From a virus (Duplodnaviria > Heunggongvirae > Uroviricota > Caudoviricetes), in IMG/VR virus record IMGVR_UViG_3300029068_000003: a stretch of 37,522 bases of DNA; one strand, 5' to 3'. Below the pieces are notes generated by a model. That model saw only the letters and a program-made list of their open reading frames with translations, did not search any database and had not been told where the DNA came from. Below, one piece after another: positions 2,964 to 10,146 of this stretch. Within the stretch, counting starts at the first letter, position 1. Each line of letters starts with the position of its first letter. Position numbers and translations under genes: made by a program.

Positions 2964-4042
2964 CAGAACGGATCCTCCTGTACTCTGGCTTTTTTCTTTT
3001 TCCGCGCGCCGGGGGCTTCGGGTTCAGGCAGATAAGCATCAGGTGGGCCGACACGGATTTCCGTCAGGGTGCCGTTCTGGTCCTGAGTAAACGTGACTTC
3101 CGAGACAAGCAGTTCGGTATTGTCGAAACCACAGACCGGATCGAAGACAATCACCCGCTGGTTGGGCTGCCACAGCGTACCGTTACCCTGTCGCCAGCCC
3201 TGCACCACATAGGTGGTTTCATCCGTCCGCGCCGCCCGTTGTCGGGCTTCAAAGTCAGCACGCGCAATACAGCCTGCCCCCGTAGCCTGCCCTGTCTGCC
3301 TGATATACATCGGACGGTAACGGGCAATAAATGCATCCTCTGTGCGGGCCCGCAGCGCGGTGGTGGTGGCCTCACCGAAATCATCGTCGTTTCCGGCACG
3401 CTGCCCCGCTACCTGGTAAACTGAAAACCGCTCCCGGATACTCTTCTCCGTATCACAGGAAAGGATGTTTTCCCCAAGTACCAGCGCGGTATGTGCCCGC
3501 GTTGAGCCAATACCACCAATCACCAGCCTGCCGTGCGGGTCGTCATAAGCCAGCGCCTGCTGCTGACCGAGTATTTTGTTGATCACCTCGATCACCGTTT
3601 CACCGTGATCAGGCTGGACATCCGGAATAACACCCGACGGCGCATCGCTGTTCACCACCTCAATGCCGAAAGGCGCAGCAAGCGCCTGCGCAATCTGTAC
3701 CAGCGATCGTCCGTTAAACTGTGTCGGTTCGGCTGCACAGTCAATCAGGTCAGCAGTCAGACTACGTCCGGCAATACCGGTGCTGACCGAACGGGCATCG
3801 TAATGAACGGGGGTCGCCTCCACCCAGCCGGTGATCACCAGCTCATCACCAATCAGCACTTCCACTTTTGAACCATTTTTAATGCGCGGCTGAAGCGTGG
3901 TGATACCCTCATCTCCCGGCCACTGGCGGGTGATCTCCACGCTGAAATCCCGCGCCAGCCGTTCAATACCGGCACCGATGCGCACCGATGTCCAGCCATT
4001 CCACTCCCGGCCATTTACCCGTAGCGTGACATTGTCGTTCAT
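2963..4042 (-). CDS. Baseplate hub / tail protein (Mu gp44, P2 gpD-like)
   Basis: 359 aa ORF, ATG start, directly downstream of the DNA circulation protein gene. Confidence 0.55.
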   Translation of the reverse strand: MNDNVTLRVNGREWNGWTSVRIGAGIERLARDFSVEITRQWPGDEGITTLQPRIKNGSKVEVLIGDELVITGWVEATPVHYDARSVSTGIAGRSLTADLIDCAAEPTQFNGRSLVQIAQALAAPFGIEVVNSDAPSGVIPDVQPDHGETVIEVINKILGQQQALAYDDPHGRLVIGGIGSTRAHTALVLGENILSCDTEKSIRERFSVYQVAGQRAGNDDDFGEATTTALRARTEDAFIARYRPMYIRQTGQATGAGCIARADFEARQRAARTDETTYVVQGWRQGNGTLWQPNQRVIVFDPVCGFDNTELLVSEVTFTQDQNGTLTEIRVGPPDAYLPEPEAPGARKKKKARVQEDPF

Positions 4043-5367
4043 TGCACTGGCACCTTCAGAGGGATCACCGGCACAAAGCCGGGATGCGTAATGGCATTAC
4101 GCCGGATAATGTCCGCGTCACGCGCCGCGTTATCAAACCAGGTCGCCGCCAGCACCAGCGCGGGTAAAACCTCATCCGGCGTGCGCTGAATGATCCGAGC
4201 AGACTGTTCAAGGCGCGTGTTGATATCCGCATTCAGATCTGCTTTCACCCGGCGCAGAGCCAGAAACAGCGCATCACTGGTTGTACGGGACAACTCCTTA
4301 TCAATTGCCGTATTCAGTGTGTCGCGAATGTCGGTCAGTTCTTCCCACGTTGGCAGGTCAACCGTGTTTTTTACCGCCGGTGCATTGTTCAGCACCGGAT
4401 GCGTGACGGCAGGCCAGCCGGAGCTCTGCGCGGGTGTTGTTGACTGCCCCACTGCGGCATTCTGCATCACCGCAGAAGTTGTTGGCGCAGGCAATCGGGT
4501 AACGGCATACGCCGCTTCGCTGATTGCAGTCGTACGAAGGGTGCTGGCAACCATGTTACGCTGCTGCGTCGCTGTGGCGGTGGTTTTACTGTCCGTTTTC
4601 CAGACGCCGCGCGGTTGCAAATCGCTGCCGAGGCTGACACAAGAAAGCGTTTTGATCATGGTGACCAGGTCGCTGGCGTTACCATAAAGGCGTTTCCCGG
4701 TACGCCACATTTTCTGCACCTGCTCAACGAAATTTTTGCCTGACGATGGCGGCGGCAGAAGTACCGAGATATCCCCCTGCAACAGCCTGGCGGCATCCGA
4801 TACGGCAGAATCCACCACTTTCATCGCATCAGAAACATACCCCAGCATTATGCTGGCATTACCGATAACGTCGTTCTGCACGAAATCCGCCACACCATCG
4901 ATACTGAAACCGCTGAAGCTGTCACTGATGCAGTCATCCAGTGCAGAACAGGATGACATCAGCGTCTGCGCCGTCGCCGCACCTGATGTGGGGTAAGAGA
5001 GTTCTCCTGCTTCGACAAACTTCAGGTCAAAGCGGACAATACGCCCTTCACTTTTCGATGTGCTGACCCGAACTTCCCCGTCAACACAGACTTTCAGCTC
5101 ACCATATGTCGGGTGGACAAGCGTGCCGGGACCTGGTTTATTCAGCGCTTCAATCAGGCGATCGCGCTGGTCAAAGCAGTCATCTCCCACCACATAAGCC
5201 GTGATGGACGGGCGAAAAGTGATTTTCCCCAGGTCTTCGGTATAGGGTTTGTCGCGGTTCGGGTATTCATGTGTTTCCACACGGCGACCGGTTCCCGCAC
5301 TTTCTTCTTCAACCTTAAACGGCACGCCGCGAAATGACGCGTCCTGAAGCCTGTCTTTCCACGTCAT
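4039..5367 (-). CDS. DNA circulation protein (Mu gp43/N-like)
   Basis: 442 aa ORF beginning MTWKDRLQDASFRGVPFKVEE, N-terminus typical of the Mu N family; located after the tape measure as in Mu-like tails. Confidence 0.6.
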   Translation of the reverse strand: MTWKDRLQDASFRGVPFKVEEESAGTGRRVETHEYPNRDKPYTEDLGKITFRPSITAYVVGDDCFDQRDRLIEALNKPGPGTLVHPTYGELKVCVDGEVRVSTSKSEGRIVRFDLKFVEAGELSYPTSGAATAQTLMSSCSALDDCISDSFSGFSIDGVADFVQNDVIGNASIMLGYVSDAMKVVDSAVSDAARLLQGDISVLLPPPSSGKNFVEQVQKMWRTGKRLYGNASDLVTMIKTLSCVSLGSDLQPRGVWKTDSKTTATATQQRNMVASTLRTTAISEAAYAVTRLPAPTTSAVMQNAAVGQSTTPAQSSGWPAVTHPVLNNAPAVKNTVDLPTWEELTDIRDTLNTAIDKELSRTTSDALFLALRRVKADLNADINTRLEQSARIIQRTPDEVLPALVLAATWFDNAARDADIIRRNAITHPGFVPVIPLKVPVQ

Positions 5368-5382
5368 ATATACTCCGAAAAT

Positions 5383-5408
5383 TAAAAAGCCACCTATTAG
5401 AAGGTGGC
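5383..5408 (-). terminator. Intrinsic terminator downstream of the moron gene
   Basis: Perfect 7-bp stem gccacct/aggtggc (5389-5395 / 5402-5408) with 6-nt loop, followed on the minus strand by a T-run (plus-strand A-run 5384-5388). Confidence 0.55.
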
Positions 5409-5428
5409 CTTGTAATGAATTTTATTAA

Positions 5429-5959
5429 TTAGCGAGTCAGAAACAACGAATCTTTATACTTTTGCTGTTGTTCATTTAAATACTTAGCTGTTTCATCGCT
5501 GGCAAATGGAAATATTACCGTATTTTTAGGCATGGTAATTTCTTTTTTGTCCAGCGTCAGAGTAAACATAGGAACATACTGAGCAGAGTAACGCACCGCA
5601 GAAACGAGCTCTAGTTTAGACTCTTCAATAACACTTAAATTATCTAGGCTAACTTTCTCTTCATCTTTTTTCTTTGACGCATTTAAAGTTTTTATTACTT
5701 TATTTAATTTCTCCTGAAAATCCTCCTTAAAGTTTTCAGGATTGCCGTCGACAACAAGAATCTGTTCACCCTGATTATCTGGAAAAATAATCTTTGCACT
5801 TATCAATTTATTTTCTTTATAAACATCACCAAGTTTTATGGCTCCTCCAGATAACTGAATAATATGTTCATCTTTAAAGGAGATGTTGCCAGAGATTATG
5901 AGAGATGAAAAAATAGCCGCTGCTCCAAGAATTACACTTGCTGTGATATAGCCTTTCAT
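5429..5959 (-). CDS. Moron-encoded secreted or membrane-anchored protein, function unknown
   Basis: 176 aa ORF, ATG start; N-terminal hydrophobic segment (ILGAAAIFSSLIISG); strongly AT-rich relative to flanking tail genes; own terminator; inserted between DNA circulation and tape measure genes. Confidence 0.55.
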   Translation of the reverse strand: MKGYITASVILGAAAIFSSLIISGNISFKDEHIIQLSGGAIKLGDVYKENKLISAKIIFPDNQGEQILVVDGNPENFKEDFQEKLNKVIKTLNASKKKDEEKVSLDNLSVIEESKLELVSAVRYSAQYVPMFTLTLDKKEITMPKNTVIFPFASDETAKYLNEQQQKYKDSLFLTR

Positions 5960-6050
5960 TTTTCGCCTATTAACATTTTTCTAAATGTGCATTAATTCTA
6001 TCACTCTATTTATGACTTACAACCAGCAATACCTGTGAGGGGAATCCTGG

Positions 6051-7883
6051 CTACCAAAATCGGGTATAGCCAACATCGTGATTTATATCAATGCCACTGG
6101 AGCGTGTTTCCGTAACCCGCATACCTGGTGGCATATTTATAAATGATACCTTGATCTCACCATCAACTTTTGGCGCGGTAGCTTTATTAATCATGAAGGG
6201 ATTCGGACCTGTGGCACCGGAGGCGTTGTTTGCCTGAGCCGGATCCACCTCCGGATAAGGAGTGTATCCCCGTGGCGGTATTCCCGTCCCATAAGCATCA
6301 TAAGCACCCGCGCCCCACTGCGCCGAGTTAATGGCATCGACCGTGTCACCGGAACTGTCGGTAAACCATTCAATAATCGGCTTCAGCTTATCCCACATAT
6401 CCTGAAACCACTTAACAACCGGTCCCCAGTTATTGATCACCATCCCCAGCGGCGACCAGGCAAAAACCTTCTTCAGAAGTTCCCAGCCAGCCTCAAAATA
6501 AGGACTAATGGTTTCCCAGAGCTTCTTAAAATAAGGTCCGACAACATCCCAGTTAGTGATAATTAATCCCGCAGCCAGGGCTATCGCCGTCGCAATCATG
6601 CCAATCGGCGTCATCGACATGATCCTGCTGACGATACTGATGGCACTGCCCACGCCCATCAATCCCAGTTTCAGAATCGCAAGACCGGCAGCAAGCCCGA
6701 CGACGCCGCGAATAACCCGGGGATTTTCATCCGCAAACTTCGTGAATTTTTCCCCTAACTCCCCCAGCCATTGCGTGATATTTTTGGCGTCACCAGAAAA
6801 TGCGCCGCCAATAGCCGCAAGGCCGTTAGTTGCGGTCCCCGTCATTGCCTCCCACAGGTTGGACAGCGTACCAAGCTGGGCCTGAACACGTTTATTCAGG
6901 CTGGCCTGTTTATTCATCTTCTGCTGGATCTGATCGTAACCATCCTTTCCTTTATCGATCAGAGCATTGACCACCTGAAGGGTTTCGGCATCATCACCAA
7001 ATATTGCCTTAAGTACACCGGTTCGCTTAACGTCGGTCAGTTTTCGCAGCTTTGCCAGTTGCCTGAACATGTTATCAAGACCGCCAAAACTCCCTTTGCC
7101 GTCAGTAAAATCGAGCTGTACCCCGAGTTTCTGGCGGGCCATAACTTTATTAACGCCCCTGATTTTCTTAACGCTTAATCCGGACTGGATAACTTTTCGC
7201 AGGGCATTACCTGCCGACTCCCCGTTCATCCCCATCTGATCCATCATGACGCTGATGGGGGCAAGGCTCTGTGCAGCCTGAAGACCGTCCTTGTTCACCA
7301 TCTTCAGAACAGAACTGGTTTTAGTGAAGAAGGACAACATGTTGGTATCGTCAACGCCCAGATAAAACGCCTTCTGGATAGTGTCGAACAGCCCCATCAT
7401 GTCTTCTGACGCCGTTCCGGTAGCATCCTGCATCTTTGCAGCAAACTCAGCAGCCGCTTCCGGTGTTTTTTTCAGTTGTACCGCAAGATAAGCTGTCGCT
7501 TTACCCACACCGCCAAGAATATTTTCTGCCGGGATCCCCTGACGCACCAGCATCTGCATCATGTTCTGGAAATCAGCCGTTGTACCGGGTAGCTGGTTAC
7601 CCAGGCCAATAGCCAGTTTATTGATGTCCTGAAAGCTCTTTCCGACCTCGCCGTTCGCATCCATCATGGCGACTTTCAGCCCGGTGGCGGCGTTTTCCTG
7701 ATCGGCATAAGATTTCAGGGAAAGCGTCAGACCCGCTGCCAGTCCGCCACCAAGCGCCAGCCCACCCTGTGATGCTTCTTCCGCCTGGCGTTTAAATCCC
7801 CGGATTTTCTTTTGCATTTTCGACAGCGCGGGAGAAAGTCTGTCGACACCGGTGATCAACGCCTTAAGCTCAAATTCAGCCAT
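6051..7883 (-). CDS. Tail tape measure protein
   Basis: 610 aa ORF, ATG start, Ala/Gly/Leu-rich with hydrophobic stretches; between tail chaperone and baseplate genes. Confidence 0.7.
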   Translation of the reverse strand: MAEFELKALITGVDRLSPALSKMQKKIRGFKRQAEEASQGGLALGGGLAAGLTLSLKSYADQENAATGLKVAMMDANGEVGKSFQDINKLAIGLGNQLPGTTADFQNMMQMLVRQGIPAENILGGVGKATAYLAVQLKKTPEAAAEFAAKMQDATGTASEDMMGLFDTIQKAFYLGVDDTNMLSFFTKTSSVLKMVNKDGLQAAQSLAPISVMMDQMGMNGESAGNALRKVIQSGLSVKKIRGVNKVMARQKLGVQLDFTDGKGSFGGLDNMFRQLAKLRKLTDVKRTGVLKAIFGDDAETLQVVNALIDKGKDGYDQIQQKMNKQASLNKRVQAQLGTLSNLWEAMTGTATNGLAAIGGAFSGDAKNITQWLGELGEKFTKFADENPRVIRGVVGLAAGLAILKLGLMGVGSAISIVSRIMSMTPIGMIATAIALAAGLIITNWDVVGPYFKKLWETISPYFEAGWELLKKVFAWSPLGMVINNWGPVVKWFQDMWDKLKPIIEWFTDSSGDTVDAINSAQWGAGAYDAYGTGIPPRGYTPYPEVDPAQANNASGATGPNPFMINKATAPKVDGEIKVSFINMPPGMRVTETRSSGIDINHDVGYTRFW

Positions 7884-8058
7884 GTGTGCGTTTCTCCTGC
7901 TCTATCCTGTTTGCCTGACTGACCAGCAAGGGAATTTCACTGATCGGCATATTCAGCAATTCGAAGGGATTAATGCGCCAGTAACTGGCGCAGTCAAAGA
8001 AGCGATCAGTGAGGTATTCAGCCGTCAGGCCTGGAGGAAAAAACCAGCCACAAGCCAC
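7876..8058 (-). CDS. -1 frame extension of the tail assembly chaperone (G/GT-like programmed frameshift product, C-terminal part)
   Basis: ORF in the -1 frame relative to 8025..8294, overlapping its 3' end; slippery heptamer U UUU UUC on the mRNA (complement of 8037-8043) sits in the overlap; the ORF-track start is GTG, not an independent ATG. Confidence 0.5.
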   Translation of the reverse strand: MACGWFFPPGLTAEYLTDRFFDCASYWRINPFELLNMPISEIPLLVSQANRIEQEKRTHG

Positions 8059-8294
8059 GCCGCAGCATTCAGGTCTGCCGGAGACATCTGGTCGACAGAG
8101 TTTTGCGGCACTTTCGCCAGCCGCACAATGTATTTCGATACCACATGCGCCAGAAGTCTGACTGACTCATCCTGATTCATCTGGTAGGGATACCCCAGCT
8201 CGCGGACATCTTTCCCGGTGGGCTCATCAAACTCCAGTACGGAGAGTGTCTCGCCATGAGCAGTAATCGGTTTCTTTAACTCAAGCTCTTTCAT
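8025..8294 (-). CDS. Tail assembly chaperone (Mu gp41-like)
   Basis: 89 aa ORF, ATG start, between tail tube and tape measure; carries the slippery site near its 3' end. Confidence 0.55.
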   Translation of the reverse strand: MKELELKKPITAHGETLSVLEFDEPTGKDVRELGYPYQMNQDESVRLLAHVVSKYIVRLAKVPQNSVDQMSPADLNAAAWLVAGFFLQA

Positions 8295-8650
8295 TACTGG
8301 TAATCCCCTTCTTCACCGTGGAACTCAAGATCAACCGTGCCTTCTTCGGCATTATGGTTCGCTTCGCCGTGCAGCCAGGCAGACGACAGTACATAGACCT
8401 GACCGTTCGCCAGCTCGGCAGTGATGGTCATCTCATCAGACGAGGTGATTTTGCTCACCGGAAAATTCTTCGGCACCTTGAAGGTCCCTTTGACATAGGG
8501 CGCACGGTGAGTTTCCTTGCGGTCCACTGAACCGTCCAGGCCGATGATGTCATCATTGACCGTCCTGTTCATGGGCACCTCAATGCCGCCGGTCAGCGAT
8601 AGCTGCTGACCGTCAATTTTGAAATAACAGGTTCCCCCGATACGGGCCAT
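8294..8650 (-). CDS. Tail tube protein
   Basis: 118 aa ORF, ATG start, immediately downstream of the sheath gene. Confidence 0.6.
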   Translation of the reverse strand: MARIGGTCYFKIDGQQLSLTGGIEVPMNRTVNDDIIGLDGSVDRKETHRAPYVKGTFKVPKNFPVSKITSSDEMTITAELANGQVYVLSSAWLHGEANHNAEEGTVDLEFHGEEGDYQ

Positions 8651-10146
8651 TATGCAGACTCCTCTGAATACTGAAGACGGAACTGGTTAACCACGGCAAA
8701 GACACGCAACTGGTTAACATAGTCAGGCGGGAACAGCGTGTTCAGGCGGTTCGGATCGCTGGCATCACGCTCCACAACCAGGTACTGCTTAAACAGTTCG
8801 TAGTTTTCCACGATCCCCGCACGCTCAAGCTGACGGTAGGTTGCCAGCAGTTCCCCTTTGATCACCGCCGGGGTGACAATCGCCTGACCGGGACCAAAGC
8901 GGGTACCGTCACTGGCAAGCTTGTGACGCCCGTACTTACTGGTAATGACGGATTTCAGTTTGCGCAGTACATACGCGCTGGTATGCAGCGTCTCACTGTC
9001 GAGGTAGCTGTTATCCGCAACCCCGTAAGCGTTTTTCCTGTACGTGGTGACATCACGCTGAATGCGCAGTACCCCGCTTTCGACATACGCCGTTGCCACG
9101 CCATGAGACAGCAGGGTCTGTTGTTCGGTCATCGTGAACCGTTTCCCCTTCGGCGCAGGCAGCATACCCACCAGCTCACCGGTCTGCGTGGGACGTGCCG
9201 GATCGTTGCGAATAAACACCGCTGCGCGGGCGGTACGGCTTGCCGCCAGTTCGTCGGCAGGCGTCTGGGTCTCTTTTTCGTACCCCGCCAGGGTAATGTG
9301 CTGCTGGTTAAACTGGTCACCTGCGGTCACCAGTTCTGACAGCGTGCCGATCTTTGCCGTATACACATGACCATACAGCTGACGCGCATAGCTCCAGCGA
9401 CCGCTGGTATCGTTCATCTCGGTCACCAGCGTGTTAACGGAGGCCGTGTCGTTGAACGGCAGGCCGATATAATCAAACGGCTCATCCGCCATTGCAGCCA
9501 CCGCGCCGGTGAGAACCGGAGCACCCGTTCCGGCGGTACCCGTCGCCACGGCAATCTGTACGCCCGCTGGCAGCACTTCGCCCCCACCAAAGCCGTAGTA
9601 ATTGAGGCTGACAGGAATTTCATTCCCGCAAAGCCCCTTATGACGCGCGGTCAGTGTGACCACACCTGCCGAAGATGAAGCCGTAAACGGCAGGGCCGGA
9701 ACGGCATTGATGGCATCCTGGATACTGCCGGCAATCGTCGTGACGTTATCGCCGTTGGTCACCGGAGCCTGCACGCGGGTACGTCCCACATAGACATTCA
9801 CCGTGCCGCTTTCGGTTGCTTCCCCGGTCACCGTCAGCGTAACCGTTGCCGCCGCGCCTGTGGCTTCCGGAACGGCAATCACATACAGCTCACCAAACGG
9901 GTCGGTCTGGCGATAAGCCTCGACCATACGCGCCAGCTGACTTCCCGCACCACAAATCTGGCGTGCATAGTCTGCCGACGGCATCAGCACCAGACTGTTG
10001 GCAACAATCTCTGCACCGTTATTGGCATGACCAATCAGCAGCGATGCTCCGCTGTCCTGTGCAGTATTCGCAGCCTGGTTATCCATTTCCGCATAAAACA
10101 GCGGAACCAGCGTATTCGACGGAATGGTGTTAAAGCTTATCGTCAT
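8650..10146 (-). CDS. Tail sheath protein (contractile tail)
   Basis: 498 aa ORF, ATG start, sheath-tube-chaperone-tape measure order. Confidence 0.75.
   Translation of the reverse strand: MTISFNTIPSNTLVPLFYAEMDNQAANTAQDSGASLLIGHANNGAEIVANSLVLMPSADYARQICGAGSQLARMVEAYRQTDPFGELYVIAVPEATGAAATVTLTVTGEATESGTVNVYVGRTRVQAPVTNGDNVTTIAGSIQDAINAVPALPFTASSSAGVVTLTARHKGLCGNEIPVSLNYYGFGGGEVLPAGVQIAVATGTAGTGAPVLTGAVAAMADEPFDYIGLPFNDTASVNTLVTEMNDTSGRWSYARQLYGHVYTAKIGTLSELVTAGDQFNQQHITLAGYEKETQTPADELAASRTARAAVFIRNDPARPTQTGELVGMLPAPKGKRFTMTEQQTLLSHGVATAYVESGVLRIQRDVTTYRKNAYGVADNSYLDSETLHTSAYVLRKLKSVITSKYGRHKLASDGTRFGPGQAIVTPAVIKGELLATYRQLERAGIVENYELFKQYLVVERDASDPNRLNTLFPPDYVNQLRVFAVVNQFRLQYSEESA

What the first reader, a model, noticed from the sequence alone, without database searches (positions are those of the whole stretch)
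7876..8294. Programmed -1 ribosomal frameshift in the tail assembly chaperone (G/GT-like)
The chaperone ORF (8025..8294) ends in a U UUU UUC slippery heptamer (complement of 8037-8043). An overlapping -1 frame ORF with no genuine ATG of its own (GTG only) extends 50 codons to the tape measure start. This is the conserved frameshift arrangement of tailed-phage chaperone genes between tube and tape measure.
Basis: partly seen in the sequence, partly recalled or inferred. Interest (0 to 1): 0.45.

Follow-up and report, generated by a model that had tools for sequence, protein, structure and literature searches.

The report
Tail chaperone frameshift, P2 E/E+E' type
An SfV-like E. coli prophage very probably makes two versions of its tail assembly chaperone, using a conserved ribosomal -1 slip on U UUU UUC; this is a long-known phage device, but public annotations of this phage group leave it out.

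Summary
On the minus strand, an 89-codon chaperone gene (8294..8025, Pfam PF10109) lies between the tail tube and tape measure genes. It carries T TTT TTC (8043..8037) in the phase needed for tandem -1 slippage. The -1 frame then runs 53 codons to a TGA (7878..7876) that overlaps the tape measure ATG by 8 nt. The predicted fusion is 139 aa.

Comparative evidence is strong.
- All 20 diverged relatives (38-99% identity, out to a betaproteobacterium) keep the in-phase heptamer and a 50-59 aa -1 extension ending at the tape measure start.
- In 10 of 19 loci examined, the -1 frame has no start codon upstream of the heptamer.
- dN/dS in the extension is 0.11 in the -1 frame and 1.2-1.4 in the other two frames.
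- The heptamer codons are synonymously frozen.

The layout matches phage P2 E/E+E' (slip at GGT TTT TTG). It does not match Mu, which uses a -2 shift. The extension does not match Pfam's P2 GpE domain. I found no conserved proximal stimulatory structure.

No public record I inspected annotates the fusion. This is an ordinary new member of a known kind. Protein-level proof and slip efficiency remain untested.

The parts
8025..8294 (-). Zero-frame tail assembly chaperone gene (89 aa, the 'G' or 'E' product). Its ATG overlaps the tube gene stop (TAATG).
   Evidence: ORF. Pfam PF10109 Phage_TAC_7, E=3.6e-16, residues 4-86 matching profile positions 2-78 of 79. PHROG 166 'tail protein'. RefSeq names it 'phage tail assembly protein'.
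8037..8043 (-). Slippery heptamer T TTT TTC, in X XXY YYZ phase (zero-frame codons GGT|TTT|TTC).
   Evidence: Sequence and phase. The heptamer is in phase in 20/20 diverged loci, as TTTTTTC or TTTTTTT. The codons are synonymously invariant. Exactly T6 is present in 79/80 near-identical IMG/VR contigs.
7876..8037 (-). -1 frame extension read after the slip (53 codons, PPGLTAEYLTDRFFDCASYWRINPFELLNMPISEIPLLVSQANRIEQEKRTHG, then TGA); the 'T' or E'-like domain. The predicted fusion CDS is join(8294..8037, 8037..7876) and gives 139 aa.
   Evidence: Frames. The extension is conserved in 20 loci with the motif F-D-C-A-x-Y-W-R-I-N-P-x-E-L...Q-A-N-R-I. dN/dS is 0.11 in this frame and 1.38 and 1.17 in the others. 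It matches PHROG 32181, E=2e-41.
6051..7883 (-). Tape measure protein gene (610 aa). Its ATG (7883..7881) overlaps the end of the -1 extension by 8 nt.
   Evidence: Pfam PF10145 PhageMin_Tail, E=1.2e-26. The same 8-nt overlap occurs in most relatives and in P2 between E+E' and T.
8294..8650 (-). Tail tube gene immediately upstream (118 aa). By analogy with lambda, the tube protein is the likely binding partner of the extension.
   Evidence: Pfam PF10618 Tail_tube, E=2.4e-33.
7974..7992 (-). Conserved RNA hairpin UGCGCCAG-UUA-CUGGCGCA inside the extension, 44 nt 3' of the heptamer. Its role is unknown, and it is too far away to be a canonical stimulator.
   Evidence: Predicted. Four of the eight synonymously invariant codons of the extension fall in it, while the loop base varies. 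It is paired in 87% of cells with almost no covariation. It is weak or absent in 4 of 19 loci that still keep the heptamer.

Best explanation
This is the tail assembly chaperone gene pair of an SfV-like (Mu-type tail) E. coli prophage. It is expressed through a programmed -1 ribosomal frameshift.

Proposed mechanism:
1. Most ribosomes translate the 89-aa chaperone and stop at 8027..8025.
2. A minority shift frame. With tRNA-Phe on UUU in the P site and tRNA-Phe on UUC in the A site, both slip back one base onto UUU UUU. They then read CCU CCA GGC...
3. This produces a 139-aa fusion of chaperone residues 1-86 plus a 53-aa extension. Translation ends at a TGA that overlaps the tape measure start.

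By analogy with lambda gpG/gpGT and P2 E/E+E', the shared N-domain would coat the tape measure protein and the extension would recruit the tube protein. The slip rate would then set the ratio of the two products.

What is shown: the signal, its phase, its conservation, and purifying selection on the -1 frame.

What is inferred: that the shift is ribosomal, its efficiency, and the binding partners.
For: Position. The gene lies between tube (PF10618) and tape measure (PF10145) and carries the chaperone domain PF10109.

Signal. The heptamer is in phase and is the only one in the overlap.

Conservation.
- 20/20 loci from 38 to 99% protein identity keep GGT TTT TT(C/T) in phase. They include Edwardsiella, Erwinia, Pantoea, Kosakonia, phage SfIV and Derxia.
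- The zero-frame tail after the heptamer varies (5, 10, 11 or 23 codons), yet the site stays put.
- The -1 frame always runs 50-59 codons to the tape measure start.
- In 10 of 19 loci the -1 frame has no ATG, GTG or TTG between its upstream stop and the heptamer.

Selection. dN/dS in the extension is 0.11 in the -1 frame and 1.38 and 1.17 in the other frames. Codons 84-86 are synonymously frozen while neighbouring codons use 3-4 synonyms.

The heptamer is a proven slippery site. U_UU.U_UU.C gave 0.12% frameshifting without a stimulator, 0.89% with the IS911 stimulator and 7.6% with the IS3 pseudoknot in E. coli reporters (PMC4066793 supplement).

Precedent. P2 E/E+E' is annotated in its RefSeq record as essential tail proteins made by a -1 frameshift, and has the same architecture with its slip at GGT TTT TTG.
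Against: - There is no protein or RNA evidence for this phage group.
- In reporters the bare heptamer gives only ~0.1%.
- I found no conserved proximal stimulator. The first 40 nt downstream fold no better than shuffles in the window (z=0.1) and inconsistently across loci. There is no conserved SD-like element upstream (sequences) and no Rfam match.
- The extension does not match Pfam PF06528. Profile-profile similarity to P2 E' is not significant (E~0.01, probability 3-4%).
- Transcriptional insertion of one U would give the identical protein.
Confidence: 0.85

Rival explanations
1. Transcriptional slippage rather than ribosomal slippage. RNA polymerase would add one extra U on the T6 run, giving a minority mRNA in which the two frames are fused. 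The protein would be identical (…GFFPPGL…).
For: The site is a homopolymer run, T6 in most loci and T7 in L019, L020 and SfIV. Sharma et al. note that U7 runs may cause indels in mRNA through transcriptional slippage. The two mechanisms cannot be told apart from the protein sequence alone.
Against: From general knowledge, runs of 6 are short for efficient RNA polymerase slippage, and known bacterial cases use about 9 or more. Most loci keep exactly T6 followed by C, although a synonymous change to T7 is available. The homologous P2 site TTTTTTG is annotated and cited as a translational -1 frameshift.
Confidence: 0.07
2. The -1 ORF is an independent small gene started at GTG 8058, as one phage record annotates it (a 60-aa 'hypothetical protein' in vB_EcoM-689R6).
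For: A GTG exists 5 codons upstream of the heptamer in the window. One GenBank record and PHROG 32181 treat the ORF as a separate protein.
Against: In 10 of 19 diverged loci there is no ATG, GTG or TTG in the -1 frame upstream of the heptamer, yet the conserved peptide begins right after it. No Shine-Dalgarno sequence precedes the GTG. An exhaustive search of 1.84 billion representative proteins found only about seven genuine separately called relatives.
Confidence: 0.04
3. There is no second product. The 141 nt between the chaperone stop and the tape measure start would be a non-coding spacer, as SfV and RefSeq annotations imply, and the open -1 frame and T-run would be coincidental.
For: The SfV, SfIV and E. 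coli RefSeq records annotate nothing there.
Against: There is strong purifying selection specifically in the -1 frame (dN/dS 0.11). The peptide is conserved down to 38% chaperone identity. The stop is positioned invariantly at the tape measure start.
Confidence: 0.02

Closest known systems
Phage P2 E / E+E' tail chaperone pair (-1 frameshift at TTTTTTG; Christie et al. 2002, as cited in PMC3091744)
   Same: - The N-domain is PF10109 and ends at the slip site, at profile position 78 of 79 in both.
- The slip context is GGT TTT TTN, encoding G-F.
- Sizes are similar: 89/139 aa here and 91/142 aa in P2.
- In both, the fusion stop overlaps the tape measure start by 8 nt.
- Neither has a proximal stimulatory hairpin.
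- The extension shares a motif-level pattern, D-x-A...[FW][HW]xxPxE[LM]...AxR.
   Different: - The last base of the heptamer is C rather than G, so tRNA-Phe rather than tRNA-Leu is in the A site.
- The extension fails Pfam PF06528, and the profile comparison is not significant.
- The surrounding tail genes are Mu-type (sheath, 118-aa tube, DNA-circulation protein), not P2-type.
Lambda gpG / gpGT (-1 frameshift at G GGA AAG; Levin et al. 1993; Xu et al. 2004, 2013, 2014)
   Same: - The gene sits between the major tail and tape measure genes.
- Two products share an N-terminus through a low-level -1 slip.
- The longer product ends near the tape measure start.
- This pair supplies the functional model: G binds the tape measure and T binds the tube (PMC5009743).
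   Different: - The heptamer and the tRNAs involved are different.
- No sequence similarity was detected, and the Pfam family is different.
- Lambda is a siphovirus, whereas this is a contractile tail.
Phage Mu gp41 (tail assembly chaperone, -2 frameshift)
   Same: The rest of the tail module (sheath L, tube M, gp38-like protein, DNA-circulation N) is Mu-like in gene order and annotation. Mu gp41 also scores weakly on PF10109.
   Different: - Mu gp41 is 144 aa and carries PF23746.
- It is reported to use a -2 shift (PMC5009743; PMC2628397).
- In the window, the frame a -2 shift would reach closes after 2 codons.

Membership tests
Conserved tail-assembly-chaperone frameshift (G/GT type, Xu et al. 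2004) | The gene lies between the major tail/tube gene and the tape measure gene. | tested here: met
   Tube PF10618 at 8650..8294, chaperone at 8294..8025, tape measure PF10145 at 7883..6051.
Conserved tail-assembly-chaperone frameshift (G/GT type, Xu et al. 2004) | A second ORF overlaps the 3' end in another frame and lacks its own translation start. | tested here: met
   The -1 frame is open 8166..7876 and has only a GTG in the window. In 10 of 19 relatives it has no start codon at all upstream of the heptamer.
Conserved tail-assembly-chaperone frameshift (G/GT type, Xu et al. 2004) | A slippery sequence in the correct phase lies inside the overlap. | tested here: met
   T TTT TTC at 8043..8037 with zero-frame codons GGT|TTT|TTC. 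The motif has been shown to be shifty in E. coli.
Conserved tail-assembly-chaperone frameshift (G/GT type, Xu et al. 2004) | The slip site and the downstream frame are conserved among relatives. | tested here: met
   20/20 loci keep the site. dN/dS is 0.11 in the -1 frame. The heptamer codons are synonymously frozen.
Conserved tail-assembly-chaperone frameshift (G/GT type, Xu et al. 2004) | Both the short and the fused protein are actually made, in a set ratio, and both are needed for tail assembly. | not testable with these tools
   This needs a western blot or mass spectrometry of induced lysates, plus genetics.
P2 E/E+E' family (PF10109 + PF06528) | The N-terminal domain is PF10109 (Phage_TAC_7). 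| tested here: met
   E=3.6e-16, 59.4 bits against a cut-off of 25. P2 E gives 1.3e-12.
P2 E/E+E' family (PF10109 + PF06528) | The frameshift extension is a PF06528 (Phage_P2_GpE) domain. | tested here: not met
   No PF06528 hit at E<=10 for the window extension, nor at E<=1 for any of 11 related extensions, while P2 E' scores 2e-22. hhalign of the two profiles gives E=0.011 and probability 3.8%, so remote homology is neither shown nor excluded.
P2 E/E+E' family (PF10109 + PF06528) | The slip occurs at GGT TTT TTN at the end of the N-domain, and the fusion stop overlaps the tape measure start. | tested here: met
Mu gp41 (-2 frameshift) family | A Gp41_Mu domain (PF23746) and an open frame reachable by a -2 shift. 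| tested here: not met
   Only PF10109 is found. The +1/-2 frame closes 2 codons after the chaperone stop.

The most novel reading that the evidence does not exclude
The synonymously frozen hairpin UGCGCCAG-NUA-CUGGCGCA (7992..7974), 44 nt downstream of the heptamer, could be a functional RNA element of this clade. It might be an unusually distant modulator of the frameshift, a pause site acting only on ribosomes that have already shifted, or a processing or stability signal that tunes tape measure expression. A bare heptamer gives only ~0.1% in reporters, so some such element could explain how a useful level of fusion protein is reached.
Probability: 0.1. Interest if true: 0.4.

Novelty: new member of a known kind. 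Interest (0 to 1): 0.18.

Why it matters
This matters mainly for annotation. The chaperone region occurs in 1063 of 5426 complete E. coli genomes and in the Shigella serotype-converting phages SfI, SfII, SfIV and SfV. Every record I inspected either leaves a ~140-nt gap or calls the -1 ORF a separate hypothetical protein. A protein that is probably essential for tail assembly is therefore missing from these proteomes.

The finding also shows a Mu-type contractile tail module using the P2-type -1 site rather than Mu's -2 shift. The extension belongs to a small family that Pfam does not cover. None of this changes current understanding of how these chaperones work.

Tried and rejected
- **Pfam, NCBIfam and PDB sequence searches of the extension or fusion.** Nothing beyond PF10109 was found. 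The PDB hits to LHCI proteins are spurious.
- **Profile-profile comparison of the extension with P2 E'.** A single P2 sequence and then a 15-member GpE alignment gave E of 0.014 and 0.011, with probability 3-4%. The alignment is consistent but not significant.
- **AlphaFold2.** The proxy P0001, an error-fused metagenome protein, gave mean pLDDT 47.5, so I ran no fold search.
- **Stimulatory RNA.** The 114-nt fold has z=-4.1. Its long-range helices are only 56-61% paired in relatives. The proximal 40 nt are unremarkable. Rfam gave nothing.
- **Fused proteins P0001-P0003.** I rejected these 137-139 aa proteins from the big protein database as evidence of natural fusions. They carry extra local errors around the junction and come from single short contigs.
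- **Long repetitive hits P0187-P0190.** These hits from the exhaustive search are repeat artefacts.
- **IMG/VR scan.** It returned only near-identical copies, useful only for counting T6.
- **Prior reports for SfV.** I could not read Xu et al. 2004, so I could not check whether SfV itself was already listed there. The open-access SfI and SfIV genome papers do not mention a frameshift.

Full report
**What is in the sequence.** On the minus strand the window carries a contractile-tail operon:
- sheath, 10146..8650, three sheath Pfam domains
- tube, 8650..8294, PF10618
- an 89-codon gene, 8294..8025, PF10109 'Phage tail assembly chaperone proteins, E, or 41 or 14', E=3.6e-16
- tape measure gene, 7883..6051, PF10145
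- a DNA-circulation gene, 5367..4039

The chaperone's codons 84-86 are GGT TTT TTC, so T TTT TTC (8043..8037) is in X XXY YYZ phase. The -1 frame is open from 8166 to the TGA at 7878..7876, which overlaps the tape measure ATG at 7883 by 8 nt. Its only upstream start codon is GTG at 8058. A -1 slip on the heptamer gives residues 1-86 plus PPGLTAEYLTDRFFDCASYWRINPFELLNMPISEIPLLVSQANRIEQEKRTHG, 139 aa in all. The +1/-2 frame closes after 2 codons.

**Where the window comes from.** The region is 98-99% identical to Shigella/E. coli phages SfI, SfV and SfII and to several E. coli phages. It is 100% identical to a prophage of E. coli OkiPb01675. The chaperone region is present in 1063 of 5426 complete E. 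coli genomes. None of the records I inspected annotates a fusion. SfV, SfIV and RefSeq/PGAP leave the ~140 nt unannotated. One phage record calls the -1 ORF a separate hypothetical protein. The SfI and SfIV genome papers do not mention a frameshift.

**Comparative test.** A genome scan returned 20 loci with 38-99% protein identity to the chaperone, from Shigella, Edwardsiella, Buttiauxella, Citrobacter, Atlantibacter, Scandinavium, Kluyvera, Erwinia, Pantoea, Kosakonia, several MAGs and the betaproteobacterium Derxia. Phage SfIV adds a 44% identical allele.
- Every locus has GGT TTT TT(C/T) in phase. This holds although the zero-frame tail after it varies between 5, 10, 11 and 23 codons.
- In every locus the -1 frame continues 50-59 codons and ends at or within a few bases of the tape measure start.
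- In 10 of 19 loci the -1 frame has no ATG, GTG or TTG between its upstream stop and the heptamer, so it cannot be started independently there.
- The extension peptides align with a clear motif and six invariant residues.
- Across ten diverged loci, pooled Nei-Gojobori dN/dS over the part of the extension beyond the chaperone stop is 0.11 in the -1 frame, against 1.38 and 1.17 in the other two frames.
- In nine diverged chaperone genes, 45 codons have a conserved degenerate amino acid, and only six use a single codon throughout. Three of those six are the consecutive heptamer codons 84-86. The alanine codon just before them uses all four synonyms.
- 79 of 80 near-identical IMG/VR contigs carry exactly T6.

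**Mechanism.** U_UU.U_UU.C is an experimentally shifty heptamer in E. coli. It gave 0.12% frameshifting with no stimulator, 0.89% with the IS911 stimulator and 7.6% with the IS3 pseudoknot. H_HH.U_UU.Y motifs are among the most efficient in bacteria (PMC4066793). Both slipping tRNAs would be tRNA-Phe, re-pairing UUU to UUU and UUC to UUU.

I found no conserved proximal stimulator:
- The first 40 nt downstream fold no better than shuffles in the window (z=0.1) and inconsistently among relatives.
- The upstream sequence has an SD-like GGGAGG only in some relatives.
- Rfam has no match.

This resembles P2, where no downstream structure is reported either (PMC3091744). A low slip rate is what the lambda model needs. 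There, G and GT are required at about 30:1, G binds the tape measure and the T part binds the tube subunit (PMC5009743). Those functional roles are inferred here by analogy and were not tested.

**Comparison with known systems.** The closest system is P2 E/E+E':
- P2 E is also PF10109 and ends at profile position 78 of 79 at the slip site.
- The P2 site is GGT TTT TTG.
- E is 91 aa and E+E' is 142 aa.
- The E+E' stop overlaps the T (tape measure) start by the same 8 nt.

The extension differs. P2 E' is PF06528 (E=1e-21), but neither the window's extension nor any of ten relatives reaches it even at E<=1. Profile-profile comparison gives E~0.01 at 3-4% probability. The alignment is consistent, but homology is unproven.

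The extension matches PHROG 32181, of unknown function. An exhaustive phmmer search of 1.84 billion representative proteins found only about seven genuine relatives. Each was called from just upstream of the 'FF' encoded by the T-run, which shows how rarely this frame is annotated.

Mu's tail genes otherwise resemble this module, but Mu is different at this gene. Its gp41 is 144 aa, carries PF23746 and is reported to use a -2 shift.

**Rivals.**
- Transcriptional insertion of a U on the T-run would give the same protein and cannot be excluded from sequence. T6 is short for polymerase slippage, and most loci keep T6-C although T7 is synonymously available.
- Independent initiation at GTG 8058 is contradicted by the start-less relatives.
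- A non-coding spacer is contradicted by the frame-specific purifying selection.

**Side observation on RNA.** An 8-bp hairpin, UGCGCCAG-UUA-CUGGCGCA (7992..7974), lies 44 nt after the heptamer.
- Four of the eight synonymously invariant codons of the extension fall inside it, while its loop base varies.
- It is retained in 15 of 19 loci and weak or absent in four that still keep the heptamer.
- Pair counts show 87% pairing with almost no covariation.

It is too distant to act as a canonical stimulator and is not required for conservation of the slip site. Its role is open.

**Verdict.** It is a well-known device in a phage group where the records I inspected do not annotate it. Confidence that a fusion is made by recoding at this site is about 0.9. 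Confidence that the recoding is ribosomal -1 slippage is about 0.85. Interest is low (0.18). I class it as a new member of a known kind. I could not read Xu et al. 2004, so I could not check whether SfV was already listed there.

Noticed in passing
window 5368-6050 (ORF 5429..5959, minus strand): A low-GC insert (33-34% against ~52% in the flanks) sits between the tape measure and DNA-circulation genes. It holds one 176-aa ORF with an N-terminal hydrophobic segment. SfV has only a 45-nt gap at this position. The ORF has no Pfam or PADLOC hit and no match in the phage collection. It is present in 179 of 5426 E. coli genomes as 'hypothetical protein'. It looks like a moron (cargo gene) inside the tail operon.
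   Followed up: partly
window 7974-7992 (minus strand): A conserved hairpin, UGCGCCAG-UUA-CUGGCGCA, lies 44 nt 3' of the heptamer. Its stem codons are synonymously frozen and its loop base is variable. It is kept in 15 of 19 diverged loci. It is too far from the slip site for a canonical stimulator, and its function is unknown.
   Followed up: partly
proteins P0001-P0003; T-run at window 8038-8043: Three 137-139 aa 'already fused' chaperone proteins exist in metagenome and Logan assemblies. Each comes from a single short contig and has extra local errors near the junction. They are most likely homopolymer or assembly errors rather than natural fusions.
   Followed up: partly
L003 (phage SfIV) 3404-3819: SfIV carries a diverged allele of the chaperone (44% identity, 107 aa) and of the tape measure gene. 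Its heptamer is T TTT TTT, 23 codons before the zero-frame stop, yet the 52-aa -1 extension ends with the same 8-nt overlap on the tape measure start. The chaperone and tape measure genes appear to have been exchanged together as a cassette.
   Followed up: partly
one of L025-L104 (IMG/VR contig, locus id not recorded): In one near-identical viral contig, the -1 frame after '...ELLN' runs on into a very long (roughly 600 aa) unrelated ORF instead of ending at the tape measure start. This suggests a rearrangement or a chimeric assembly downstream of the chaperone.
   Followed up: no
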